Positions 1,429 through 14,532 of a stretch of DNA of 36,660 bases are shown piece after piece. A program made the translations under genes and the position numbers. Source of the stretch: a virus; UHGV virus genome UHGV-0183637. One strand, given 5' to 3'. The notes beneath the pieces are model-generated. The model made no database searches. It was not told the origin of the DNA and was given only the letters and a program-made list of their open reading frames with translations. Positions within the stretch are counted from its first letter, which is position 1; each line of letters opens with the position of its first letter.

Positions 1429-2055
1429 TCATGCTGATTTCTTGTTTACAGGCTTAGTTTCTTGCTCCGGTGTGACGGGAACGCGATCACCTGGTGTTCC
1501 TGCTCGGATACAGGATTTGGCGCGTTGCAAAATCTCTTTGTCAGTTTCTTCATTACCAGCCAATGCCACGCAAATGGCCTCTTTTAGAGAGTCCCTTATG
1601 TTTAAGTTACGTATAACAGTTTCTATGTCTGTTTCTACTGACGTAGCCAGCCGATTCAAAATCCCTTTTACACCAATTTCTGATGCTGCTATCGCTAACG
1701 CTTTTCGATCCTTACTACTCACAAATCCTAACAATGAAACGATTAACGCAACAGAATCATCGTCGCAATCGAACTTTGGTTCGATTTTTTCATAATTATT
1801 CGAATCATTGCCTTGTGGTTGTTCTCCTGTCAGTAGCCACATAAGTGAAACACCACAGGCATCGGCAACCCTTGCTGCGCTATCAATGGTTGGGTAACTA
1901 TCTCCCCTTAGGTATTTCCTGACAGATGCTTCAGATAAGCCACTACGGCGAGCAATCTCACTTTTGTTTAGCCCCCCCATCGCTTTTTCCAGTCTTTCGC
2001 CAAAGCGTACTATTTGCTCATTATGAAAAGTACGATCATGTTTAATTGATGTCAT
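1429..2055 (-). CDS. Prophage repressor, XRE/lambda-CI-type HTH with uncharacterised C-terminal domain
   Basis: 208 aa. N-terminal HTH segment LNKSEIARRSGLSEASVRKYLRGDSYPTIDSAARVADACGVSLMWLLTGEQ. Leftward-transcribed and divergent from ner-A-B, the position of Mu c. GGGAGA RBS-like sequence upstream on the minus strand. No obvious S24 peptidase motif in the C-terminal half. Confidence 0.8.
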   Translation of the reverse strand: MTSIKHDRTFHNEQIVRFGERLEKAMGGLNKSEIARRSGLSEASVRKYLRGDSYPTIDSAARVADACGVSLMWLLTGEQPQGNDSNNYEKIEPKFDCDDDSVALIVSLLGFVSSKDRKALAIAASEIGVKGILNRLATSVETDIETVIRNLNIRDSLKEAICVALAGNEETDKEILQRAKSCIRAGTPGDRVPVTPEQETKPVNKKSA

Positions 2056-2516: not shown

Positions 2517-4559
2517 GTGTGGTTTGTAGTGCGGGATTGCCTGGGATTATCCGGTTTTCCATCAGCAGAAAAAAACATCCGGGCACGTCTGGATCGTCTT
2601 GCTGAAAATAACCCGGAATGGAAGCGCAAGCGTGAAGGCACCAAAGCATTCGAGTATCGCATCGACTGCCTGCCCGCTGAAGCGCAGAAAGTTTTACGTA
2701 AGCGCCTGACCCATCAGGTCCTGGAAGATGCACAACTGCCCGCCGTAGTTGAGCAGAAAGCAGTTAAAAACGTCGCCGTTCGCGATGAACTGGAGGTGAT
2801 GGTCAAATGCCCGGAGCTGGCATTACGCGAAGTCCAGTCACTGACCGACAAGCAAAAGGCCATCGCTGATGCGCGGATATTGCTGGCTACTGAAGTGCAT
2901 AAGCTGCGCGAGTATGCCGGAATGACCAGGAAGGCCGCTTTAAAGCACATCGTTGATGGTGTGCGCATGGGGGCGTTACCTGACCGCATTATCGAAGCAG
3001 CGAATACTGCAAATGCACGTCAGGGAAAGCGAACCGGTGTCAGCACCGGCAGCCTGGATAGCTGGTACTCCAGCTGGGTGATGGCGCGCGGTGATGCCAA
3101 TCAGTTACTGGCGTTACTGGCTCCCGGTCATCATAAGGGAACACCGTGGGAGCAGGTCTGGTGGTTGAGCGATTTCTTTATGTTCTATCGCTCATGGAAG
3201 CGCCCGACCGTTGAATACGCGTATCGCGAGTTTTCAGCCTGGTGGCATGAAAAACACGCGAATGATGCGGGAATGCTGGCGGCACTGCCTTCAGTTCACG
3301 CAGTAAGACGGGTGTTAAGCAGCGTCCCGGTGATTGTTAAAGAGCGTTTCCGCTCCACCGGTTCAGCCTGGCGTTCGCTCAATCCCTTTGTGCGGCGCGA
3401 CTGGACATCGCTACCGGTTAATGCGGTATGGGTCGGAGATGGTCACTGTATGAAAATGACCGCGTTTAACCCCCTGACCGGCAATATTTTCCGGCCAGAA
3501 GTGACGCTGGTTATGGATGCGGGGCAGCGTTTTGTTGTGGGATGGTCACTGTCCCTGTCGGAGAACGTGATAGCTGTTGCTGATGCGTTGCGTTACGGCA
3601 TGGCGCAGCACGGGATACCGCTGATTTATTACTCCGATAACGGGGGCGGTGAAAAAAACCGGGTTCTTGATGCCGATATTACCGGGATTCTCCCCCGGCT
3701 GGGTGTGGAACATCACACGGGGATACCAGGTAACCCGCAGGGGCGCGGGGTGATTGAAAGGCTTAACAAGGAAATTCCCCGGGATGTGGCCCTGAGTTTC
3801 CAGACGTACTGCTCAAAGGGAGCAGACAAGGAAACCGTAATGATGCAGCAACGGATTATGCAGTCAGCCATTAAGGCCACCCACAAAGGGAAAGAACTGA
3901 CAAAACGGCAGGTTAAGGCGAGGGATGAAGTCCCCACCTTTGAGCAACTGATGGCAGCCATAGAACTGGAGGTCAGACGCTATAACAACCGGCCACACAG
4001 CAGCCTTCCCCGCAAAGAGGATGGCGAATATTACAGCCCGGCAGCGTATCGCCGGAAACTGATAAAAGAGCAGAATGTTGAAATTGATTTCCTGTCGCCG
4101 GAAGAACTGCATGAAATGTTCAGACCGGAAGTGACGCGCAAAACATTTCGCGGGGAAATTCAGTTATTCAACAATATTTATTACTCGTATGAGCTGGCCG
4201 CAGAGCACGGGAATGAAGTCAGGGTCAGTTACGATATTCATGATGCAAACAGCGTCATTGTCCGGCGGGCTGATGGCTCTTATATCTGCGATGCCATCTG
4301 GAACGGTAACAAGGTTGATGCCTTCGCTAAACCAGTTATCGAGCAAAAACTGGAGAAACGCGTCAGAGGCCGCATTGCACGGGCCGCGCAGAAAATCGAA
4401 GAGGCTAAACGCGAGCTTACCCCGGCTATTACGCAGAAGCCTGAGTTTAATCTGGGATATGGACTGGAACGCCAGGAGAAAAAGGAAAAAGAAGAACTTT
4501 ATTTATTCGCATCTGAACGCGAGCGCAATTTAAAGAAAAACGGCACAAACAACCGTTAA
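2517..4559 (+). CDS. Mu-type DDE transposase (MuA-like)
   Basis: 680 aa, GTG start after an AAGGTGGA RBS. N-terminus M-WFVVRDCLGLSGFP parallels MuA MELWVSPKECANLPGLP (enhancer/operator-binding domain). Central region WVGDGH...LVMDAGQRFVVGW...YYSDNGG is consistent with a Mu-family DDE core. Confidence 0.9.
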   Translation: MWFVVRDCLGLSGFPSAEKNIRARLDRLAENNPEWKRKREGTKAFEYRIDCLPAEAQKVLRKRLTHQVLEDAQLPAVVEQKAVKNVAVRDELEVMVKCPELALREVQSLTDKQKAIADARILLATEVHKLREYAGMTRKAALKHIVDGVRMGALPDRIIEAANTANARQGKRTGVSTGSLDSWYSSWVMARGDANQLLALLAPGHHKGTPWEQVWWLSDFFMFYRSWKRPTVEYAYREFSAWWHEKHANDAGMLAALPSVHAVRRVLSSVPVIVKERFRSTGSAWRSLNPFVRRDWTSLPVNAVWVGDGHCMKMTAFNPLTGNIFRPEVTLVMDAGQRFVVGWSLSLSENVIAVADALRYGMAQHGIPLIYYSDNGGGEKNRVLDADITGILPRLGVEHHTGIPGNPQGRGVIERLNKEIPRDVALSFQTYCSKGADKETVMMQQRIMQSAIKATHKGKELTKRQVKARDEVPTFEQLMAAIELEVRRYNNRPHSSLPRKEDGEYYSPAAYRRKLIKEQNVEIDFLSPEELHEMFRPEVTRKTFRGEIQLFNNIYYSYELAAEHGNEVRVSYDIHDANSVIVRRADGSYICDAIWNGNKVDAFAKPVIEQKLEKRVRGRIARAAQKIEEAKRELTPAITQKPEFNLGYGLERQEKKEKEELYLFASERERNLKKNGTNNR

Positions 4560-4577: not shown

Positions 4578-5471
4578 ATGAGTTTAATTACGCAATTAAA
4601 TGACGTAATGGCCCGTCGCGGCTATACGCAAACCCACGTCGCCCGTGCTATTGGTCGTAGCAGCGCCGTTATCAACCAGTATTTACAGGGTAAATATCAG
4701 GGCGATATGGCTGATATTGAAGAACGCATTTCTGCCTTTGTGACCCGTGAGCGGGAAAAGGAAAACAGCCGCCGTATTAAAGCGAAATTTGTTGCCACCG
4801 GTATGGCTGCCAAAGGACTGGAGGTGTTGGCCTATGCTCACCTGGAATGTGAAATCTGCGTACTGTATGGCGCGGCAGGTCTTGGCAAAACAATGATTCT
4901 GCGTGAATACGCCGCCAGAAACCGGGATGCGGTCCTGATTGAAGCCGACCCGGGCTATACAGCCAGAACACTGCTTGAGGAGTTGTGCCGCCAGCTGGGG
5001 GTAAAGGTTCGCGGCAACATTCACGAACTGATAGATGCCTGTGTGCGCGAACTGCGTGATTCCGGTCGCCTGCTGATGGTGGACGAGGCTGAACTGCTCC
5101 CCTATCGCGCACTGGAGGTTCTGCGTCGTCTGCATGACAAAGCGGGTATCGGGGTTGTCCTGGCGGGTATGCCTCGTCTTCTGATTAACCTTAAGGGGCG
5201 TCGTGGTGAGTTCGCCCAGTTATACAGCCGTGTGGCGCTGGCGCTTAACCTGGGCGATACGTTGTCGCAGGAAGATTTTAACCAGATAGCTACCGGGTTG
5301 ATGCCGGAAGCAGCAGAACCGGAAATCAGCGAGGCGCTTTACGCACGCTCGCTGGGTAATGCCCGCCGCCTCTTCAAACTGGCGCGCGGTGTGTACCGGA
5401 TTTGTGATATCAGCGATGCACCGGTCAGTGTGCAGGCCATTGATAAATTCGCAGAAATGTTAATTCACTGA
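4578..5471 (+). CDS. Transposition ATPase / target DNA activator (MuB-like AAA+)
   Basis: 297 aa. N-terminal HTH-like segment (GYTQTHVARAIGRSSAVINQY), Walker A GAAGLGKT, Walker B LLMVDEAE. Immediately downstream of the transposase gene. Confidence 0.85.
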   Translation: MSLITQLNDVMARRGYTQTHVARAIGRSSAVINQYLQGKYQGDMADIEERISAFVTREREKENSRRIKAKFVATGMAAKGLEVLAYAHLECEICVLYGAAGLGKTMILREYAARNRDAVLIEADPGYTARTLLEELCRQLGVKVRGNIHELIDACVRELRDSGRLLMVDEAELLPYRALEVLRRLHDKAGIGVVLAGMPRLLINLKGRRGEFAQLYSRVALALNLGDTLSQEDFNQIATGLMPEAAEPEISEALYARSLGNARRLFKLARGVYRICDISDAPVSVQAIDKFAEMLIH

Positions 5472-5907: not shown

Positions 5908-6123
5908 ATGGCGGTTAAGTTAGAAGTAATTATCTATACCAATGAAAAAGGCGCGACTTTTACCCGGATTACAGGGAGTTATTCGAAGGATGGCGCTTCC
6001 AAAAGGGAGCTTCAGGTGGCAACAGGATTACATGATGTTATCAAGGAAGCACTGAGAAATGACTATAACGGCGTGAATCTTTTTTCTGAAAACGTTGCGC
6101 CTCGCGCACATAACACAAATTAA
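5908..6123 (+). CDS. Hypothetical early protein
   Basis: ATG at 5908 preceded by AAGGAG (the track's TTG start at 5887 is less likely); 71 aa. Confidence 0.5.
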   Translation: MAVKLEVIIYTNEKGATFTRITGSYSKDGASKRELQVATGLHDVIKEALRNDYNGVNLFSENVAPRAHNTN

Positions 6124-6152
6124 TCTGTAAATATCACTGAGGTAATTTAATT

Positions 6153-6797
6153 ATGACGACTGAAAATAAAGTTAAGCAATATACAAAAAATAAAGTGCAG
6201 GAAGGCTACTGGGTTGATGCCCGTGGTGTGATGACGCCTGAAAGTCTTATCAAAGATATTGACCGCGACCGTGAGCAGTTGGTCGGTGAGCTTGTGGAGA
6301 TGGTGATTGCTGCCTCCGCCTCACTGCGTGAACTGAAACTGCGTGCGTTTGGTGATATTCAGGCATTTATTGACCTGTCAGCGGAGAAATACGGCGCTGT
6401 GAAAGGCGGTAAAAAAGGGAATATCACGCTTTACAGCTTTGACGGGCGTTACAAGATTCAGCGCGCCATGCAGGACCGTATTGCGCTTGATGAACGCATT
6501 CAGACCGCGAAGGCACTGATTGATGACTGCCTGGCTGACTGGACGGAAGGTGCACGCCCAGAAATCAAAGCCATCATCAGTGAGGCATTCAGCACGGACA
6601 AGGAAGGCAACATTAACACCGGGCGCGTTCTGGCTCTGCGTCGCCTCGAAATTGAGGACGAACGCTGGAATAACGCCATGACGCTGATTGGTGAAGCCGT
6701 CCAGGTAATTGGCAGCAGAAGTTATATCCGCGTGTATGAGCGCGTCGGTGATTCTGCTGAATACCGCGCAATCCCGCTTGATATTGCAGGGGTCTAA
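6153..6797 (+). CDS. Conserved Mu-like early-region protein (possibly DUF3164-like)
   Basis: 214 aa, balanced composition, same strand and position as Mu semi-essential early genes. Family assignment is from memory only and is tentative. Confidence 0.65.
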   Translation: MTTENKVKQYTKNKVQEGYWVDARGVMTPESLIKDIDRDREQLVGELVEMVIAASASLRELKLRAFGDIQAFIDLSAEKYGAVKGGKKGNITLYSFDGRYKIQRAMQDRIALDERIQTAKALIDDCLADWTEGARPEIKAIISEAFSTDKEGNINTGRVLALRRLEIEDERWNNAMTLIGEAVQVIGSRSYIRVYERVGDSAEYRAIPLDIAGV

Positions 6798-8726: not shown

Positions 8727-9437
8727 ATGAAAGATAAATACATTGCCAAAATCAAAAAACTGTTACGCCTTGCCAGAGGAACATCAAGCCCGGAAGAAGC
8801 CGCTAACGCTATTGCAAAAGCCCAGGCCTACATGCGCCAGCATGGCATCAGCGAAAACGACGCGGAATTGTTCGACATTCAGGAAGCTGCCAGCGCGGGT
8901 GCGCCGAGTGATGCCAGTACGCCGCCGCGTTATATGCACATCCTGTGTGACCTGGTCTGTAAAGCCTTCGGTGTCGAGTGTTACATCTCCGGCGAATACC
9001 GGGCTTCTGGTTCACTCAAACGTTACGTGCGTTTTTATGGTCCTGACAGCCGCCCGGAGATTGCGGCCTACGCGTTTGATGTGCTTTCCCGTCAGATGAT
9101 GGCTGAACGTAAAAAATATCAGGATAAACACTGCAAACGTTGTGGTCCGTCCACGCGGGTAGCCCGTGGCGACCAGTTCTGCGAAGGCTGGGTCTTTGGT
9201 GCCCGTGATGTCATTGCGGTGTATGACGTCTCCCCGGAAGAAAAAAGCCGCCTTGAGCTTTACAGAAAGAACCTGCACAGCACTAAGGGGTTGCGCGACG
9301 GGGATATGCGCACAGCTAAAGCGTGCCGGGGTGCAGAGTTTGCCGCTACAGCCGGTTTTATCGCCGGGAAAAACGCCAGGCTGCATCAGGGGGTTAATGG
9401 TCAGAGCAACAGACCGCTGGCACTGGGGAGGGTGTAA
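8727..9437 (+). CDS. DUF2786-like phage protein
   Basis: 236 aa; N-terminus KIKKLLRLARGTSSPEEAANAIAKAQAYMRQHGI resembles the conserved N-terminal helix of DUF2786-family phage proteins (from memory). Confidence 0.65.
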   Translation: MKDKYIAKIKKLLRLARGTSSPEEAANAIAKAQAYMRQHGISENDAELFDIQEAASAGAPSDASTPPRYMHILCDLVCKAFGVECYISGEYRASGSLKRYVRFYGPDSRPEIAAYAFDVLSRQMMAERKKYQDKHCKRCGPSTRVARGDQFCEGWVFGARDVIAVYDVSPEEKSRLELYRKNLHSTKGLRDGDMRTAKACRGAEFAATAGFIAGKNARLHQGVNGQSNRPLALGRV

Positions 9438-9439
9438 CG

Positions 9440-9667
9440 ATGGCTTTTAAACTTCTCAGTGTTACCGAAGCAATATACCAGCCGCCCGGAGAACGCCACG
9501 AATACAGGATGAATGACGGTAGCGCGGTGGTTGAGTTCCCCGGATATCCGGGGGCTTCCCGGTGGCGGTTCTATGACAGTGCGGGACGCCGGATTATTAA
9601 AAGAACCGTGCACAACGCCATGAAAGCCGCTGTAGAACGTCACAAAAGAAGGTTTAACTGCAAATGA
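9440..9667 (+). CDS. Hypothetical small protein
   Basis: 75 aa; GGGAGGG RBS upstream; first of four tightly coupled small ORFs. Confidence 0.55.
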   Translation: MAFKLLSVTEAIYQPPGERHEYRMNDGSAVVEFPGYPGASRWRFYDSAGRRIIKRTVHNAMKAAVERHKRRFNCK

Positions 9668-9888
9668 ATATTGAATTTTATGACTACGGAGTCACCGCAA
9701 AAATCATTGTTACCTGCTGGTTCTGGGAGTTCCGCCGCTATTGCCGGGTTGTGGATGCGACGCTGTTTGTGGCTCCTGAAGTGCGCCACCAGAGTGGCGG
9801 TGGCCTTTTAATGAAAACCGTCATCACCGGTAAAACGGTTCCGATGTTACGGGCGTTTAAAGTGGCAAAACAGGAGGCTGCACAATGA
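9664..9888 (+). CDS. Hypothetical small protein
   Basis: 74 aa; ATGA start/stop overlap with the preceding ORF. Confidence 0.5.
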   Translation: MNIEFYDYGVTAKIIVTCWFWEFRRYCRVVDATLFVAPEVRHQSGGGLLMKTVITGKTVPMLRAFKVAKQEAAQ

Positions 9889-10076
9889 GTAACGAGCACA
9901 TCCATCATTATCAGCGTGATGGGTCAATTTTCATATGCCAGCGTTGCGGCACAGCAAAGCATCGTAATGGTAAATACTGGTGGGCCGGTCGCTATTCAGA
10001 ATCTGAACCACCATGTGGTGATGATGTTGTGGGGCAGGATGCGTGGTTTGAAACTGCAAAAAGCGAGGAAGGATGA
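9885..10076 (+). CDS. Hypothetical small Cys-containing protein
   Basis: 63 aa; ATGA overlap with the preceding ORF; CQRCG plus a further Cys suggest a possible zinc-ribbon. Confidence 0.5.
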   Translation: MSNEHIHHYQRDGSIFICQRCGTAKHRNGKYWWAGRYSESEPPCGDDVVGQDAWFETAKSEEG

Positions 10077-10077
10077 G

Positions 10078-10257
10078 ATGAAAAACCGTAAAGCAAGACT
10101 GCTGATAGCAAAGCCAGGGCAGCGTATCCGTATCTCAAACAGGCTTGTTATTCGTTATGCGCCTTCTGGCCTTGCACGATGGTTACCAACGCATTTTTAC
10201 GGTGCCGGGCGACGTAGAAGTGCAGCACAAAACCGCTGGAAAAATCACGGTATGTAA
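10078..10257 (+). CDS. Hypothetical small basic protein
   Basis: ATG at 10078 after AGGAAGGA, immediately after the previous stop; 59 aa, Arg/Lys rich. The track ORF 9916..10257 is the same frame extended upstream. Confidence 0.45.
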   Translation: MKNRKARLLIAKPGQRIRISNRLVIRYAPSGLARWLPTHFYGAGRRRSAAQNRWKNHGM

Positions 10258-10269
10258 AGGCGGTACCAG

Positions 10270-10680
10270 GTGAAGAAAATGATTTTTGTGGCGGCATTGC
10301 TGACCATTACCCAACAGGCGCAGGCTTCAGCAGTTATTGTGGCATCTACTGCTGCGACCACTGCTGCCGCAGCTGCTGCGAACTCTGCGAATATCGCAAA
10401 CCAACAGGCACAGCGTGCTGCTAATGCATCAGCCAGTGCTCTCCCGATTTCTGTTAAGGACAGTAAGCAAAATCTGGGGTTCATAACGTGCGGTAAGCGT
10501 TCTTCTGAAGCTGTAGGCTCACTGGGATGTACGGTATATGGCGACAGTGAGAGCAGAGAAATTCCATGGAAAACGTGGCCCGGATACGTTCTTGGCTCGA
10601 AGCTCCCGGCCAGTTATGAGGTAAACGCTGTGTCGTTTGACCACTATAACGGTGTGGCAACTGTCTATTTCACATACTGA
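10270..10680 (+). CDS. Secreted alanine-rich protein (signal peptide)
   Basis: N-terminus MKKMIFVAALLTITQQAQA then ASAV...; low-complexity Ala/Thr/Asn stretch; C-terminal half has two Cys. Confidence 0.6.
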   Translation: MKKMIFVAALLTITQQAQASAVIVASTAATTAAAAAANSANIANQQAQRAANASASALPISVKDSKQNLGFITCGKRSSEAVGSLGCTVYGDSESREIPWKTWPGYVLGSKLPASYEVNAVSFDHYNGVATVYFTY

Positions 10681-10779
10681 GTCCCGGCATGAAATTTTCT
10701 GAATCACGGAGTAACAACTCGATGAAAACTATCACCGTAACGGTTGAAATCGACGTTCCTGATAACGCGGGGTGAAAAT

Positions 10780-11031
10780 ATGAGATGGGTTGACCTTTTT
10801 ATTATCGCTCTGATTGTTACGGGTATTGCGCTTTGTGTGACAACTAACAAGGCTTCTGATGATGCGAAAAATGGGCATTGCGTGGTAAAGAGAAATTTCA
10901 TCAAAACCATTACGCATTGTGATGATGGAAGCGCCACCATGACCGACGGAGATAAGTTTATTTATTGCTCTGCGGGGAAAAATGGCACGCCATCCTGTCA
11001 TGAAGTGACGCTCGGTGATGGTGATAAATAA
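10780..11031 (+). CDS. Small membrane-anchored Cys-rich protein
   Basis: ATG at 10780 (MRWVDLFIIALIVTGIALCVTTNK...), N-terminal hydrophobic anchor then a soluble part with five Cys. Confidence 0.55.
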   Translation: MRWVDLFIIALIVTGIALCVTTNKASDDAKNGHCVVKRNFIKTITHCDDGSATMTDGDKFIYCSAGKNGTPSCHEVTLGDGDK

Positions 11032-11064
11032 TTCACCATATTGAGTAGATAATAACCATGTGTA

Positions 11065-11108
11065 GACCAAAACATATGTTTTGGTCTGCCAAAAGTAATG
11101 TTTTGGTC
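11065..11108. promoter_or_regulatory. Tandem dyad operator-like sites (perfect 22-bp palindrome plus half-site repeat)
   Basis: GACCAAAACATATGTTTTGGTC (11065..11086) is a perfect palindrome; second imperfect site gCCAAAAGtaATGTTTTGGTC (11088..11108) about 22 bp centre to centre; immediately upstream of ATG 11112. Confidence 0.5.
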
Positions 11109-11111
11109 ATT

Positions 11112-11390
11112 ATGAAAATTGAACAAATCGGAATGGCAGCCTTCCGGCAGCAGGCTGAAAGCGGTGGCGTGGATGAGTTCGTCGTGCAGCGGTTCGGTGG
11201 TGTGTATCACCTCTTCGCTGTGAATCGCCACGCCGGGGTGTCCTATTTTCTACAGGAACGCCGTGGCGATTACAAGACGTGGCTGTCTCTTGACCGTGCC
11301 GCCGCGTTCCTGTCGGGGATTGGTGTTTCACGTTTTACCGTGCGTTTTGAGGATAACAAACATGCTGAAAAAGATGATCGGAGCCATTAA
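11112..11390 (+). CDS. Hypothetical protein
   Basis: ATG at 11112 directly downstream of the palindromic sites; 92 aa; weak RBS; overlaps the GemA-like start by 29 nt. Confidence 0.45.
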   Translation: MKIEQIGMAAFRQQAESGGVDEFVVQRFGGVYHLFAVNRHAGVSYFLQERRGDYKTWLSLDRAAAFLSGIGVSRFTVRFEDNKHAEKDDRSH

Positions 11391-11760
11391 AGCCGGTCAG
11401 GCGTATCTGGGGTGGGATGATGCCCTTTATCGTCAGACGCTGGCCCGCCTGACCGGTAAAACCAGCACCACACGCTGCAACCTCGATGAACTGCGCATCA
11501 TCCGGGAATACATGCATGAACAGGGATTTCCGCGTAAGGCACCCGCCGGTAAAGGTCGCCGCCCCCGTGTTGCAATGAGCAGAAAATCGATATTATCCAA
11601 AATTGAAGCGTTGCTGGCTGATGCCGGTCGTTCCTGGGCGTATGCAGAAGGACTGGCATCTCACATGTATAAGCAACATGTGATCGAATGGCTGACAGAT
11701 GATCAACTGTTTGGGGTGATGGTGGCGCTGGTTAAAGATTCAAGAAGGAGAAATCAATGA
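11362..11760 (+). CDS. GemA-like regulatory protein (Mu gp16 family)
   Basis: ATG at 11362 after GAGGA; MLKKMIGAIKAGQAYLGWDDALYRQTLARLTGKTSTTRCNLDELRIIREYMHEQGF resembles the GemA family and sits upstream of the Mor/C-family gene, as in Mu. Confidence 0.7.
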   Translation: MLKKMIGAIKAGQAYLGWDDALYRQTLARLTGKTSTTRCNLDELRIIREYMHEQGFPRKAPAGKGRRPRVAMSRKSILSKIEALLADAGRSWAYAEGLASHMYKQHVIEWLTDDQLFGVMVALVKDSRRRNQ

Positions 11761-12233
11761 TGAAAAAATGGTTGTTTTGTTTAGTAGGAGTTATTTTCTC
11801 TTGTTCTGCGCTGGCTCAGACAGAGGAACAGGCGCAAAAAGAACTGAAACGTTATCAGGATATGAAGCCATTGGCTGAACAGATGCTTCGGGAAAGTGGA
11901 AAACTTTATTACGCTATGCCAGCGGCAGCATCGCAGTACCAGCAGGGGAATATTGAAGAGTGGAAGAATATCAAAAAAGGACTAAAACAACTGGATGAAC
12001 AGGCCAGTAAACTGGGGGACGACCCGCTTGATCCTGTGTATGGTTCCTGCATAAAAATGAAAAACCAGCTACAGGATTACTGGTCTAACGTTATCAGGGA
12101 TGACAGGCAGTTTCTGGAACGTTCAAGAAATCAGTTTAAAGAATATCGTATGGATTGTTTTGATTCGTTTGTTTTTGGTAAAGAGCAAATAGAATCAAGA
12201 AAAGGCCTGGTTATTCTAGACCTGACTAAATAA
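11757..12233 (+). CDS. Secreted (periplasmic) protein of unknown function
   Basis: ATGA overlap with the GemA-like stop; signal peptide MMKKWLFCLVGVIFSCSALA then QTEE; AT-rich codon usage; followed by a rho-independent terminator. Confidence 0.65.
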   Translation: MMKKWLFCLVGVIFSCSALAQTEEQAQKELKRYQDMKPLAEQMLRESGKLYYAMPAAASQYQQGNIEEWKNIKKGLKQLDEQASKLGDDPLDPVYGSCIKMKNQLQDYWSNVIRDDRQFLERSRNQFKEYRMDCFDSFVFGKEQIESRKGLVILDLTK

Positions 12234-12245
12234 GACTTAGTTTAG

Positions 12246-12270
12246 CCCCTGCCATGCAGGGGATTTTTTT
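12246..12270 (+). terminator. Rho-independent terminator
   Basis: CCCCTGC-cat-GCAGGGG stem-loop followed by ATTTTTTT. Confidence 0.7.
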
Positions 12271-12275
12271 GTGGT

Positions 12276-12304
12276 CTGTACAGGCGATCATGTATGGCTA
12301 TAAT
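12276..12304 (+). promoter_or_regulatory. Putative promoter of the Mor/C-family gene (-10 TATAAT at 12299..12304, weak -35)
   Basis: Perfect TATAAT hexamer 30 nt upstream of the start codon; no good TTGACA 17 bp upstream, consistent with an activator-dependent promoter. Confidence 0.35.
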
Positions 12305-12333
12305 AACAGTAAGTTACTACCGGAGACGCCATC

Positions 12334-12801
12334 ATGCAGACCTTCAGTGAAACAGATCTTCGCGATGCGCAGGCACTGCTGCCCGATTCCGTGCAGCAAC
12401 TGATTAGCGTGATTGGCTTCCCCGCCCTGACCCGGTTAATCCGTTCTTTTGGTGGCGTGACGTTAAGCGGTAAAACCGGCGCACACGCCGAACGAACCGG
12501 CGGTGTCCATGCCCTGTTACATGATGTGCTGACCGAAGACGAAATCAACAAACTGATCCGCTTTCTTGGCGGTGCACCGTTTTACATTCCCCGTTGCGAT
12601 CATGCGTTACGTGCCCTGCGTAACACCCGTTTTATGGCTGATTTACAGCAGCATGTAAAAGACGGATGCTCACACCGGCAGGCGCTGGCACTGCTCTGTC
12701 CCCGTTACGGGATTTCAGACCGGTATGCATGGCAACTGATACACCGACGACAAAAACAGACTTCGCTGAAAAGCCCCACCCAGGTGGGGCTTTTTGATTA
12801 A
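12334..12801 (+). CDS. Mor/C-family transcriptional activator
   Basis: 155 aa; FLGGAPFYIPRCDHALRALRN matches the GG..YIPR signature of Mu Mor/C, with a C-terminal HTH (YGISDRYAWQLIHRR). GGAGA RBS 7 nt upstream. A GC-rich stem-loop plus T-run overlaps the 3' end. Confidence 0.8.
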   Translation: MQTFSETDLRDAQALLPDSVQQLISVIGFPALTRLIRSFGGVTLSGKTGAHAERTGGVHALLHDVLTEDEINKLIRFLGGAPFYIPRCDHALRALRNTRFMADLQQHVKDGCSHRQALALLCPRYGISDRYAWQLIHRRQKQTSLKSPTQVGLFD

Positions 12802-12828
12802 TGAGACTAAGAAAAAAGGAGGCACGAA

Positions 12829-13116
12829 ATGATGAGTTCTGACACCAATATCGACTACGCAGCACTCGGTGAATATACCGCATTTTCAGACAAGGCCCGG
12901 GATGCAGCCCGTCGCCGACATGCTGAGATGTGTAATTTATCCAGTTATCTGGCGAGACAGGCCCAAAGCCCGGAGTCAGAAACGAATCATAATGAAGTGC
13001 TGTCAGCCGTAAACAGAATGATTGACGCAGAACGGGAAATGCGTAATGCCGTGGAAAGAGCTAACCTGCTGGCGCGGGCATGTTATAAGCCACCATTAAA
13101 ACTCGCTTCTCTTTAA
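12829..13116 (+). CDS. Hypothetical protein
   Basis: Strong RBS AAGGAGG; 95 aa; charged, probably helical. Confidence 0.55.
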   Translation: MMSSDTNIDYAALGEYTAFSDKARDAARRRHAEMCNLSSYLARQAQSPESETNHNEVLSAVNRMIDAEREMRNAVERANLLARACYKPPLKLASL

Positions 13117-13156: not shown

Positions 13157-13303
13157 CCAGCAGTACCCACCACACCAGACCGTTTACCCTGTCCACTCAG
13201 ACCACAAGGCACCTTAAGGGATAGCGCCCTGCAAAAGGCTTTTGTGCCTTTGACAGGGTGTTATTTACGGGCCGTCAGTGGCTCAGATTTACAGGAGAAA
13301 CTC

Positions 13304-13717
13304 ATGTCTGAACCCTTATCAGGCGGCGGAGCTGTGGCAGTCACCATCGGTGGTGCCAGTGTGTTTGGTCTTCTCACCAATACCGATTTCGGGGTTGTGG
13401 TGGGCGCGTTTGCCGGGGCGCTTTTTGTTGTCACGCAGCAGAAAGAAATCCCGGTATGGCGAATGGCTATTCACCTGCTCGTCGCGTTTGTGGTTGGCGT
13501 TCTGGGGGCTGGCGTGGCTGCGTCACTGATGCAGTGGCTGACCCACTACAACGACAAGCCGCTCGATGCATTGTGTGCGGTCGGTGTCTCGGCATTATCC
13601 ATCAAGATACTGACCTTTTTTTATCAGCAGGAAATCAAAGTCCTGCTCGGTATGTTCTCAAAACTGTTCAACCTCGTATCAAAGTTGTGCGGTGGAGGGG
13701 GTGAAAATGGAAAGTAG
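13304..13717 (+). CDS. Holin-like multi-pass membrane protein
   Basis: ATG at 13304 after CAGGAGA; 137 aa with several Gly/Ala/Val-rich hydrophobic segments; first gene of the lysis cluster. Confidence 0.55.
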   Translation: MSEPLSGGGAVAVTIGGASVFGLLTNTDFGVVVGAFAGALFVVTQQKEIPVWRMAIHLLVAFVVGVLGAGVAASLMQWLTHYNDKPLDALCAVGVSALSIKILTFFYQQEIKVLLGMFSKLFNLVSKLCGGGGENGK

Positions 13718-14003
13718 CTTTGCCGGTATTGTGAACGTCTGGCTGTGTCTCGCCATTGTGCTGGGGTTGTTTATGTATCGCCGCCACGGCGCAGCGCATA
13801 AACCAATGATTACCTGGCTGGCGTACTGGCTGATGCTCGGCTACGGCGTCATCCCGCTCCTCTGGCTGACGGGGTCACATACGCACTCCAGCTGGCTGGC
13901 GGTGGCACTGAATCTGGTTTTCTGTGCGCTTATCGTGTGGGCGCGCGGGAATTTGTCAAAAATCCTTTCGTTACTGAGGCATCCACATGAAATCAAAAGA
14001 TGA
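13707..14003 (+). CDS. Small membrane protein (holin/antiholin-like)
   Basis: ATG at 13707 after GGAGGGGG; 98 aa with about three predicted transmembrane segments; overlaps the endolysin start. Confidence 0.55.
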   Translation: MESSFAGIVNVWLCLAIVLGLFMYRRHGAAHKPMITWLAYWLMLGYGVIPLLWLTGSHTHSSWLAVALNLVFCALIVWARGNLSKILSLLRHPHEIKR

Positions 14004-14532
14004 CATTTTTGATGAAGTCCTGGGCAAAGAAGGCGGTTACGTCAATCACCCGGATGATAAGGGCGGCCCGACCAAATGGGGCATTACGGAAAAAGTCGCC
14101 CGCGCCCACGGATACCGTGGCGATATGCGTGAGTTAACCCGCGAACAGGCGCTGGATATCCTTGAAGCCGATTACTGGTATGGCCCGCGATTTGACCAGG
14201 TCGCCGCATTATCCCCTGATATTGCCGCAGAGCTGTGTGATACTGGTGTGAATATGGGGCCAACCGTGGCGTCCAGAATGCTTCAGCGCTGGCTGAACGT
14301 TTTCAACCTGCGCGGCAGGCTGTACCCGGATATGGATACAGACGGACGCATCGGACCTCGCACCATCAGTGCATTGCGCGCCTTCCTGAATAATCGCGGT
14401 CAGGACGGTGAGCGGGTGATGCTGACGGCCCTGAACTGCACGCAGGGTGACCGCTATCTGGAACTGGCAGAGAAACGCGAGGCTAACGAATCGTTTGTTT
14501 ATGGCTGGCTGAAGGAGCGCGTGGCGGTATGA
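13987..14532 (+). CDS. Endolysin, GH108-type with peptidoglycan-binding domain
   Basis: N-terminus EGGYVNHPDDKGGPTKWGIT matches the GH108 signature as I recall it; 181 aa; located between membrane proteins and a small lipoprotein. Confidence 0.8.
   Translation: MKSKDDIFDEVLGKEGGYVNHPDDKGGPTKWGITEKVARAHGYRGDMRELTREQALDILEADYWYGPRFDQVAALSPDIAAELCDTGVNMGPTVASRMLQRWLNVFNLRGRLYPDMDTDGRIGPRTISALRAFLNNRGQDGERVMLTALNCTQGDRYLELAEKREANESFVYGWLKERVAV

What the first reader, a model, noticed from the sequence alone, without database searches (positions are those of the whole stretch)
10270..11031. Two exported cysteine-containing proteins in the early region
A signal-peptide protein with an Ala/Thr/Asn low-complexity tract (10270..10680) and a small membrane-anchored protein with five Cys (10780..11031) are encoded in an operon that otherwise makes cytoplasmic DNA-handling proteins. 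Exported prophage proteins at such positions are candidates for superinfection exclusion or envelope modification.
Basis: inference. Interest (0 to 1): 0.45.

Follow-up and report, generated by a model that had tools for sequence, protein, structure and literature searches.

The report
Two small exported early phage proteins
Two real but uncharacterised genes in the early operon of a Mu-like prophage encode small proteins that are sent out of the cytoplasm and held together by disulfide bonds; one of them belongs to a family shared by very different enterobacterial phages, and what either does is still unknown.

Summary
ORF1 (10270-10680, 136 aa) has a Sec-type signal peptide, an Ala/Thr/Asn linker and a conserved 70-aa domain with two invariant Cys. 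ORF2 (10780-11031, 83 aa) has one strongly hydrophobic N-terminal segment and a 60-aa domain with four invariant Cys; the fifth Cys lies in the membrane segment.

Both are under purifying selection and are called as genes elsewhere. They match only function-unknown families (PHROG 8805 and 8391), with no Pfam, NCBIfam, PADLOC or PDB match.

The window is a Mu-like transposable prophage. Both genes lie late in the early operon, between MuB and GemA/Mor.

ORF2 is independent of ORF1. It is a rare cassette that replaced a 61-aa gene, in 7 of 5426 E. coli genomes against 69 for ORF1.

Export is well supported; function is not. The genes have no promoter of their own, and both families also occur in virulent phages (ORF1's in lytic operons of several phage types). 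A role during lytic growth, most likely guarding the envelope against secondary phage attack, is therefore more plausible than an exclusion function expressed from the silent prophage. Moderate interest.

The parts
10270..10680 (+). ORF1: 136-aa exported protein of PHROG 8805 (function unknown)
10270..10326 (+). ORF1 signal peptide, aa 1-19 (MKKMIFVAALLTITQQAQA); predicted signal peptidase I cut after A19
   Evidence: A basic N-terminus followed by a hydrophobic core is kept in 31 of 31 relatives. The cut site is inferred from the -3/-1 rule; SignalP was not available.
10327..10446 (+). ORF1 Ala/Thr/Asn-rich linker, aa 20-59, containing a 12-nt periodic repeat at 10349-10388
   Evidence: The linker varies in length and sequence between relatives and is replaced by a short Pro-containing linker in the virulent-phage versions. 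It has low pLDDT in the full-length model.
10447..10677 (+). ORF1 conserved domain, aa 60-136, with invariant C74 and C87; predicted fold is four strands, a helix, then two strands
   Evidence: Alignment A4. AlphaFold2 domain model with pLDDT 87.8 and pTM 0.75.
10722..10775 (+). 17-codon remnant (MKTITVTVEIDVPDNAG*) of a 61-aa gene that is intact in a related prophage; left scar of the ORF2 cassette replacement
10769..11031 (+). ORF2 cassette: about 263 bp at 43% GC, carrying its own Shine-Dalgarno sequence, that replaces the body of the 61-aa gene
   Evidence: DNA alignment A8 shows homology to the other alleles ending near 10768 and resuming near 11031.
10780..11031 (+). ORF2: 83-aa protein of PHROG 8391 (function unknown), with an N-terminal membrane segment and a four-Cys domain
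10789..10845 (+). ORF2 hydrophobic segment, aa 4-22: a signal anchor, or a signal peptide with a poor cleavage site; contains the non-family-wide Cys19
   Evidence: The segment varies in sequence between relatives.
10846..11028 (+). ORF2 exported domain, aa 23-83, with invariant C34, C47, C63 and C73 (spacing C-x12-C-x15-C-x9-C)
   Evidence: Alignments A1 and A7
11757..12233 (+). Third protein with an export signal in the same operon (158 aa, MMKKWLFCLVGVIFSCSALA|QTEE); its start overlaps the gemA stop
   Evidence: No family match.
12246..12272 (+). Strongest terminator-like hairpin of the region (7-bp stem, 6 G-C pairs, T run), after the exported-protein genes and before mor

Best explanation
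Shown by tool results:
- The window is a Mu-like transposable prophage.
- ORF1 and ORF2 are two unrelated, independently acquired accessory genes near the end of its early operon.
- ORF1 has the features of a Sec signal peptide with an A-Q-A cut site, a flexible Ala/Thr/Asn linker, and a compact 70-residue alpha/beta domain with an invariant Cys pair.
- ORF2 has one N-terminal membrane segment followed by a 60-residue domain with four invariant Cys.

Inferred:
- ORF1 is released as a soluble periplasmic protein and its Cys pair forms one disulfide.
- ORF2 is oriented N-in/C-out, or is cleaved, and its four Cys form two disulfides in the periplasm.
- Both are made only after induction or infection, because they depend on the repressor-controlled early promoter.
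- Both act in the periplasm by binding a component of the enterobacterial envelope.

The mechanism I commit to is lytic-phase protection of the infected cell against secondary phage attack. This could be a block to DNA entry or to tail-associated cell-wall digestion. It resembles what T4 Sp/Imm and T5 Llp do early in infection, but uses unrelated proteins.

The target of ORF1 is probably not the phage's own receptor. Nearly the same protein is carried by phages that very likely use different receptors.
For: Context:
- HTH repressor 1429-2055 (-), MuA 2517-4559, MuB 4578-5471, DUF3164, DUF2786, GemA, Mor, holin and GH108 endolysin.
- The same gene order is annotated in related E. coli prophages.

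Export:
- Signal-peptide features of ORF1, kept in 31 of 31 relatives down to 34% identity.
- The annotators of Klebsiella phage KLB16 independently noted a signal peptide on its ORF1 homologue.
- ORF2 relatives Snook gp70, P0120 and KPN8_173 have signal peptides that look cleavable before the same four Cys. P0119 has KKVRR before its anchor, which implies N-in/C-out.
- Only 3 of 23 early genes have such N-terminal segments.

Cysteines:
- C74/C87 in ORF1 and C34/C47/C63/C73 in ORF2 are invariant.
- The flanking His residues of ORF2 are not conserved.

Lytic timing:
- No promoter-like site lies upstream of either gene. There is a Pe-like site at 2148-2177 and no outstanding terminator before 12246.
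- ORF1 homologues lie after cIII-kil-gam in a lambdoid PL operon.
- They lie among ead/Ea22 and DUF551 genes of P1-like plasmids.
- They also occur in virulent phages Av-05, KW1E_UTAR and KLB16/22.

Other support:
- Purifying selection on both genes.
- A confident fold for the ORF1 domain.
Against: - There is no functional evidence of any kind.
- Neither protein resembles a known exclusion, receptor-masking or defence protein.
- Promoter scans are crude, so a weak internal promoter active in lysogens cannot be excluded.
- SignalP and topology predictors were not available.
- The ORF2 topology rests on relatives, and the charge bias of its own flanks is weak.
- Disulfide formation is inferred, not modelled.
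- Sharing of ORF1 among phages with presumably different receptors argues against receptor masking, so the 'exclusion' label may be wrong even if the periplasmic location is right.
Confidence: 0.35

Rival explanations
1. Periplasmic host-takeover factors unrelated to exclusion. ORF1, ORF2 or both would bind and inhibit, or redirect, a host periplasmic enzyme or stress sensor during the latent period. Candidates include a peptidoglycan hydrolase or lysozyme, a protease, or an envelope-stress pathway. The effect would be to keep the envelope intact or to tune lysis timing.
For: - The evidence for export and early-lytic expression is the same as for the main explanation.
- ORF1 is shared by phages with unrelated virions, which fits a general host target better than a receptor.
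- Disulfide-clamped loops are typical of periplasmic inhibitors such as Ivy; this rests on established knowledge and was not tested here.
Against: - No similarity to the Ivy, PliC/MliC, Sp or RI families.
- The genes are not linked to the lysis cassette at 13244-14532.
Confidence: 0.2
2. One reading: lysogenic-conversion proteins expressed from the resident prophage, which exclude superinfecting phages or modify the envelope of the lysogen.
For: - ORF2 has lower GC (0.43, against 0.50-0.57 for its neighbours) and is a swapped-in cassette, both moron-like traits.
- One ORF1 subfamily on P1-like plasmids has a canonical lipobox (LSAC), as the lipoproteins Llp and Cor do.
Against: - There is no promoter-like site in front of either gene, and no terminator isolates them from the early operon.
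- ORF1 occurs in lambdoid PL operons and in virulent phages that never form lysogens.
Confidence: 0.12
3. The ORF1 domain is a divergent member of the enterobacterial DUF1471/YhcN family of small periplasmic stress and biofilm proteins (BhsA, McbA, YdgH, SrfN), captured by phages.
For: - Both are small, periplasmic and largely enterobacterial.
- They share a similar C-terminal hairpin motif, SY.V...AT.Y.
Against: - No Pfam PF07338 hit for any of 31 members, even at E <= 10.
- hhalign against six E. coli DUF1471 paralogues plus one PDB DUF1471 sequence gives probability 1-3%, over only 13-19 columns.
- ORF1 has three extra strands and a Cys pair that DUF1471 lacks.
Confidence: 0.1
4. ORF2 is oriented N-out/C-in, and its HC...HC...C...CH residues bind zinc in the cytoplasm. 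It would then be a membrane-tethered zinc-ribbon-like protein.
For: - In the close homologues, His residues flank three of the four Cys.
- The charge difference across the membrane segment is small.
Against: - The His residues are replaced by Tyr, Gln, Glu or Arg in distant relatives, while all four Cys are kept.
- Those relatives have signal peptides that look cleavable, or a KKVRR cluster before the anchor, which places the domain outside.
Confidence: 0.06
5. Chance ORFs or decaying pseudogenes with no function.
For: - A few truncated or frameshifted ORF1 copies exist, for example P0052 and P0055.
- ORF2 is rare, found in 7 of 5426 E. coli genomes.
Against: - dN/dS is well below 1 for both.
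- Full-length conservation holds across several phage types and genera.
- Both have Shine-Dalgarno sequences.
- The ORF1 domain gives a confident fold.
Confidence: 0.03

Closest known systems
T4 Sp (spackle) and Imm: early-expressed envelope proteins that exclude superinfecting T-even phages
   Same: Small phage proteins made early in lytic growth and sent to the periplasm or inner membrane by an N-terminal signal or anchor. This is the closest functional analogy for an exported protein encoded in an early lytic operon. The comparison rests on established knowledge.
   Different: No sequence, profile or fold similarity was found. Exclusion activity was not tested here. ORF1 is shared by phages with unrelated virions, whereas Sp and Imm are T-even specific.
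T5 Llp and the Cor proteins of phi80, N15 and T1: lipoproteins that mask the FhuA receptor
   Same: Small exported phage proteins containing Cys. One ORF1 subfamily on P1-like plasmids has a canonical lipobox, LSAC.
   Different: ORF1 in the window has no Cys before residue 74. ORF2 has Leu at position -1 of its only candidate lipobox (IALC), so neither is predicted to be a lipoprotein. There is no PHROG or Pfam match to the Llp or Cor families. A shared receptor is unlikely given the range of phages that carry ORF1.
DUF1471 / YhcN family (BhsA, McbA, YdgH, SrfN): small periplasmic proteins of Enterobacteriaceae
   Different: No Pfam match. hhalign probability is 1-3%. ORF1 has extra strands and a conserved Cys pair.
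Semi-essential early-region accessory genes of phage Mu (between B and gemA/mor)
   Same: The same position in the same kind of operon in a Mu-type genome. The genes are dispensable and mosaic: ORF2 is present, replaced or deleted in otherwise near-identical prophages.
   Different: The transposase is under 50% identical to that of any isolated phage in the phage collection. From memory only, none of the named Mu early functions (kil, gam, gemA and others) is an exported protein; this was not checked here.
PHROG 8805 and PHROG 8391 (function unknown); named 'prophage exported protein' in some UniRef and NCBI records
   Same: Full-length matches at E = 7e-84 and 1e-44. Some database records already name ORF1 relatives as exported prophage proteins.
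   Different: Neither family has an assigned function, structure or publication that I could find.

Membership tests
Sec-dependent secretory protein with a signal peptidase I site (ORF1) | Basic N-terminal region, a hydrophobic core of 7-15 residues, and small residues at -3/-1 about 5-6 residues after the core | tested here: met
   MKK / MIFVAALLTIT / QQAQA|S. The N-terminal basic region and hydrophobic core are kept in 31 of 31 relatives. SignalP was not available, so the cut site is by rule only.
Sec-dependent secretory protein with a signal peptidase I site (ORF1) | Experimental export and cleavage | not testable with these tools
   Needs PhoA or beta-lactamase fusions and N-terminal sequencing.
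Bitopic (N-in/C-out) or secreted mini-protein (ORF2) | A single N-terminal hydrophobic segment of about 19 residues, with the remainder of the protein outside the cytoplasm | tested here: met
   Residues 4-22 have a Kyte-Doolittle mean of 2.4-2.7. Relatives have signal peptides that look cleavable, or a KKVRR cluster before the anchor. The orientation of ORF2 itself is inferred.
Bacterial lipoproteins (the class that includes Llp and Cor) | Lipobox [LVI][ASTVI][GAS]C at the end of the signal peptide | tested here: not met
   ORF1 has no Cys before residue 74. ORF2 has I-A-L-C, with Leu at -1. The P0064/P0074 subfamily does have L-S-A-C.
Known superinfection-exclusion and anti-phage defence families (Sp, Imm, Sim, SieA/B, Llp, Cor, PADLOC systems) | A sequence or profile match to a described family | tested here: not met
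   Pfam, NCBIfam and PADLOC gave nothing relevant. PHROGs matched only function-unknown families.
Known superinfection-exclusion and anti-phage defence families (Sp, Imm, Sim, SieA/B, Llp, Cor, PADLOC systems) | Reduced plating or DNA entry of challenge phages when the gene is expressed | not testable with these tools
   An experiment is required.
DUF1471 / YhcN (PF07338) | Pfam profile match, or a significant profile-profile match | tested here: not met
   No hit for 31 members at E <= 10. hhalign probability 1.2% and 2.6%.
DUF1471 / YhcN (PF07338) | Shared fold | tested here: inconclusive
   [not shown]
Zinc ribbon or zinc finger (ORF2) | Conserved Cys/His ligand set in a cytoplasmic domain | tested here: not met
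   The His residues are not conserved, and the domain follows export signals in relatives. The four Cys are conserved, which is also what two disulfides would require.
Mu-type early-operon accessory gene | Located on the early strand between the transposition genes (A, B) and gemA/mor, with no promoter of its own | tested here: met
   Gene order. Promoter and terminator scans (crude consensus scans).

The most novel reading that the evidence does not exclude
ORF1 would define a new fold family of periplasm-acting early phage effectors. The family has spread by gene exchange among Mu-like, lambdoid and P1-like temperate phages and several virulent phages of Enterobacterales. It would hit a general envelope target rather than a specific receptor. 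For example, it could block periplasmic transit of incoming phage DNA, or a host envelope defence. ORF2 would be a second, unrelated disulfide mini-protein with a comparable role.
Probability: 0.2. Interest if true: 0.6.

Novelty: new member of a known kind. Interest (0 to 1): 0.35.

Why it matters
Small exported phage proteins are among the few tools a phage has for acting on the cell envelope from inside. The handful that are characterised (Sp, Imm, Llp, Cor, Sim, RI) have each revealed a distinct step of phage entry or lysis control.

A protein kept at 74-90% identity across a Mu-like prophage, lambdoid prophages, P1-like plasmids and a virulent myovirus, always among early genes, suggests a generally useful periplasmic activity that is still unknown. 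It is cheap to test: the genes are small and can be expressed in trans.

If it proved to be a broad block to phage entry, it would matter for phage therapy and host-range prediction. If not, it is one more pair of mosaic accessory genes.

Tried and rejected
- Pfam, NCBIfam and PADLOC scans of both proteins and their neighbours gave nothing relevant. Scanning all 31 ORF1 relatives at E <= 10 gave only scattered single hits.
- Profile searches of PDB sequences found nothing meaningful. The thymidylate synthase and chymase hits, at E about 1, are noise.
- A full HMMER scan of 1.84 billion representatives with the ORF2 profile returned four hits at E <= 0.001. One is the family's own representative, two are distant relatives, and one is a spurious repeat protein.
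- The structure-prediction quota went to ORF1, so ORF2 has no model. Its alignment is too shallow to expect a good one.
- The species-representative genome scan for ORF1 found one 3-kb contig, labelled as an actinomycete MAG at 91% identity, which is probably contamination.
- Rfam found no RNA element in 9000-13000.
- Literature searches found no paper on either family.
- A co-transferred partner of ORF1 was sought. The downstream gene is shared between a P1-like plasmid and Av-05 but is absent from the window, so it is not an obligate partner.

Full report
**Context**

The window is a Mu-like transposable prophage of an Escherichia-type host. Reading rightward from the left end, it encodes:
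- an HTH repressor on the minus strand (1429-2055);
- a small Ner-position gene (2238-2507);
- a Mu-type transposase (2517-4559: Mu DNA-binding, rve and Mu-transposase C-terminal domains);
- a MuB-like AAA ATPase (4578-5471);
- DUF3164, DUF7448 and DUF2786/DUF7168 proteins;
- GemA (ending at 11760) and Mor (12334-12801);
- a holin and a GH108 endolysin, followed by head and tail genes.

Related E. coli prophages have the same order in RefSeq annotation and in a metagenomic contig. The transposase is under 50% identical to that of any isolated phage in the phage collection. No phage record matches the local DNA.

**The observation**

ORF1 (10270-10680, 136 aa):
- It starts at GTG, behind an AAAGGCGG ribosome-binding sequence.
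- The N-terminus is MKKMIFVAALLTITQQAQA|SAV. This has two basic residues, an 11-residue hydrophobic core, and A-Q-A at -3/-1.
- Residues 20-57 are Ala/Thr/Asn-rich. The DNA there carries a 12-nt periodic repeat. This fits the 133 to 137-aa length variants among close homologues.

ORF2 (10780-11031, 83 aa):
- It starts at ATG, behind GGGGTGA.
- Residues 4-22 are the most hydrophobic stretch among 23 early-region genes.
- It has five Cys.

Evidence that both are real genes:
- NCBI's pipeline calls the same CDS in other genomes.
- Each matches a PHROG over its full length.
- dN/dS against homologues is 0.11-0.43 for ORF1, and 0.26 for ORF2 against its most divergent DNA homologue.

A third protein with an export signal (158 aa, 11757-12233) follows gemA.

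**ORF1 family**

The first search found 56 clusters at 72% identity or more, all from Escherichia, Salmonella, Shigella and Citrobacter. Most are named 'hypothetical', and a few 'prophage exported protein'.

tblastn against phage genomes showed the C-terminal 70 residues in virulent phages:
- Av-05 (Vequintavirinae), 74% identity, same 136-aa architecture;
- KW1E_UTAR and Klebsiella phages KLB16/KLB22, about 50% identity.

A profile that included these phage sequences reached 108 clusters, down to about 45% identity, adding Cronobacter and Rahnella.

In an alignment of 31 diverse members, every sequence keeps three parts:
- a basic N-terminus followed by a hydrophobic core;
- a linker of variable length and composition;
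- a conserved domain, GF[VI]TCG...GSLGC...P[WY]..[WY]PGY.LG..[LI]PASY.V..[VI]SFD.YN..AT[VI]YF.Y, with two invariant Cys.

One large subfamily (P0074, 540 contigs) has a canonical lipobox, LSAC, in its signal peptide.

**Where the ORF1 family sits**

- Mu-like prophages: the early operon.
- A lambdoid prophage: the leftward early operon, after cIII, kil and the anti-RecBCD gene and before ead/Ea22, DUF551 and int.
- 66 non-mobilizable plasmids of 85-100 kb. The P0074 subfamily's contigs carry theta-subunit (hot-type), S24-peptidase (humD-type) and, in one locus, Phd/Fic-Doc genes, that is, P1-like plasmid prophages. The homologues lie among ead/Ea22 and DUF551 genes.
- Virulent phages: among small early-type genes, or next to a cytosine methylase.

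In complete E. coli genomes it is found in 69 of 5426, at 47 chromosomal and 24 plasmid sites. The gene downstream of ORF1 is shared between a P1-like plasmid and Av-05, at 59% identity. So short blocks move between temperate and virulent phages.

**ORF1 structure**

The full-length AlphaFold2 model placed the signal peptide and linker in one long, low-confidence helix. The C-terminal domain scored pLDDT 89-95.

A domain-only model scored pLDDT 87.8 and pTM 0.75. Its topology is four strands, a helix, then two strands. The two Cys lie at the end of strand 1 and the start of strand 3. A disulfide between them is an inference.

Fold searches gave little:
- Foldseek against viral models found only a family member.

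- no Pfam hit for any of 31 members at E <= 10;
- hhalign against six E. coli DUF1471 paralogues plus one PDB DUF1471 sequence gave probability 1-3%, over only the C-terminal hairpin.

Membership is not supported, and the fold resemblance is inconclusive.

**ORF2 family**

This family is very rare:
- five clusters in the word-indexed search;
- four representatives among 1.84 billion in a full HMMER scan, one of them spurious;
- 7 of 5426 complete E. coli genomes, all chromosomal and all next to ORF1;
- twelve viral contigs.

Distant relatives exist in Klebsiella phages, including Snook, VLCpiD7b and RCIP0019 and the jumbo phages KPN8 and YC1.

Across the extended alignment, the four Cys of the C-terminal domain are invariant, with near-constant spacing (C-x12-C-x15/16-C-x9-C). 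Cys19, in the membrane segment, is kept only in close homologues. The His residues flanking the Cys are not conserved.

Several relatives have N-terminal signal peptides that look cleavable (AMA|ADNPHC and ARA|DD). One has KKVRR before its anchor. These features place the domain outside the cytoplasm and favour two disulfides over zinc binding.

ORF2's only candidate lipobox, IALC, has Leu at -1, so it is not predicted to be a lipoprotein.

**ORF2 is a swapped-in cassette**

A DNA alignment of four prophages shows homology breaking near 10768 and resuming near 11031. Three alleles occupy the slot: the ORF2 cassette, the 61-aa gene, and a deletion.

The cassette is 43% GC, against 50-57% for its neighbours. 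ORF1 and ORF2 are therefore not a functional pair by co-inheritance. No phage outside this prophage lineage was found to carry both.

**Expression timing (inferred)**

- A promoter-like site lies at 2148-2177, in front of the Ner-position gene.
- No promoter-like site precedes ORF1 or ORF2.
- None of the weak terminator-like matches between 2200 and 10270 stands out from shuffled controls.
- The strongest terminator, at 12246-12272, follows the third exported-protein gene.

By analogy with Mu, where the early operon is silenced by the repressor in lysogens (established knowledge), these proteins would be made only after induction or infection. That agrees with ORF1 homologues sitting in a lambda-type PL operon and in virulent phages.

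**Mechanism**

Shown by tool results:
- both are real genes with N-terminal export signals and conserved Cys;
- ORF1 has a confident compact domain;
- both lie in an early operon;
- their distribution is mosaic.

Inferred:
- Sec export, and signal peptidase cleavage of ORF1;
- periplasmic disulfides;
- expression only in the lytic phase.

My best guess, at about 0.35, is that they bind envelope components during the latent period and protect the infected cell from secondary phage attack. This works like T4 Sp/Imm or T5 Llp, but the proteins are not members of those families.

Because almost the same ORF1 is carried by phages with unrelated virions, masking of a specific receptor is unlikely. 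A general step or a general host target is more plausible.

Rivals:
- a periplasmic host-takeover or inhibitor role (0.2);
- a divergent DUF1471-like protein (0.1);
- a cytoplasmic zinc-binding ORF2 (0.06);
- non-functional ORFs (0.03).

**Novelty and verdict**

Both families are already catalogued as function-unknown PHROGs, and some records already call ORF1 relatives 'prophage exported protein'. The bare observation is therefore not new.

What this work adds:
- the cross-lifestyle distribution of ORF1 among early genes;
- a confident fold for ORF1 with no significant PDB neighbour;
- the cassette nature of ORF2;
- the argument that a lytic-phase role is likelier than lysogenic conversion.

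I found no paper on either family. Interest is moderate at 0.35. The genes are easy to test experimentally, but nothing here shows an unusual mechanism.

Noticed in passing
window 11757-12233: A third protein with an export signal (158 aa, MMKKWLFCLVGVIFSCSALA|QTEE, GC 0.41). Its start overlaps the gemA stop. It has no Pfam, NCBIfam, PHROG or PADLOC match and no tblastn hit in the phage collection, yet it is conserved next to gemA in related prophages.
   Followed up: partly
window 11065-11108: Two adjacent near-perfect palindromes (GACCAAAACATATGTTTTGGTC and CCAAAAGTAATGTTTTGGTC) just upstream of the 92-aa gene at 11112-11390. They are almost invariant in four related prophages, even where the neighbouring ORF2 slot differs. 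They look like a protein-binding site or operator.
   Followed up: no
window 12246-12304: The strongest terminator-like hairpin of the region (CCCCTGCCATGCAGGGG followed by a T run) lies directly after the 158-aa gene. A 10-of-12 promoter-like site (12277-12304) follows it, just upstream of mor. This suggests that mor starts a separate transcription unit here.
   Followed up: no
[not shown]
   Followed up: no
window 10722-10775; L006 3393-3578; L005 3140-3200: The slot between ORF1 and the 92-aa gene has three alleles in near-identical prophages: the ORF2 cassette, a 61-aa acidic protein (MKTITVTVEIDVPDNATDND...), or a deletion. The window keeps the first 16 codons of the 61-aa gene as a scar.
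   Followed up: yes
P0064/P0074 (loci L009-L012, gene at 6001-6405): The ORF1 subfamily on P1-like plasmid prophages has a canonical lipobox (MLSAC) inside its signal peptide, as well as a later SHA|S site. That subfamily may be lipid-anchored, while the window's version is predicted to be soluble.
   Followed up: no
L014 5246-5899 and L002 5243-5773: The gene immediately downstream of ORF1 (MKFSKF...VTIV.HSPG...) is 59% identical between a P1-like E. coli plasmid and the virulent phage Av-05. A two-gene block has therefore moved between a temperate and a virulent phage.
   Followed up: partly
L019 (JAFAFN010000164.1): The only hit for ORF1 in the species-representative genome collection is a 3.2-kb contig of a MAG labelled Actinomycetes, at 91% identity. 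This is almost certainly contamination or mis-binning from an enterobacterial phage.
   Followed up: no
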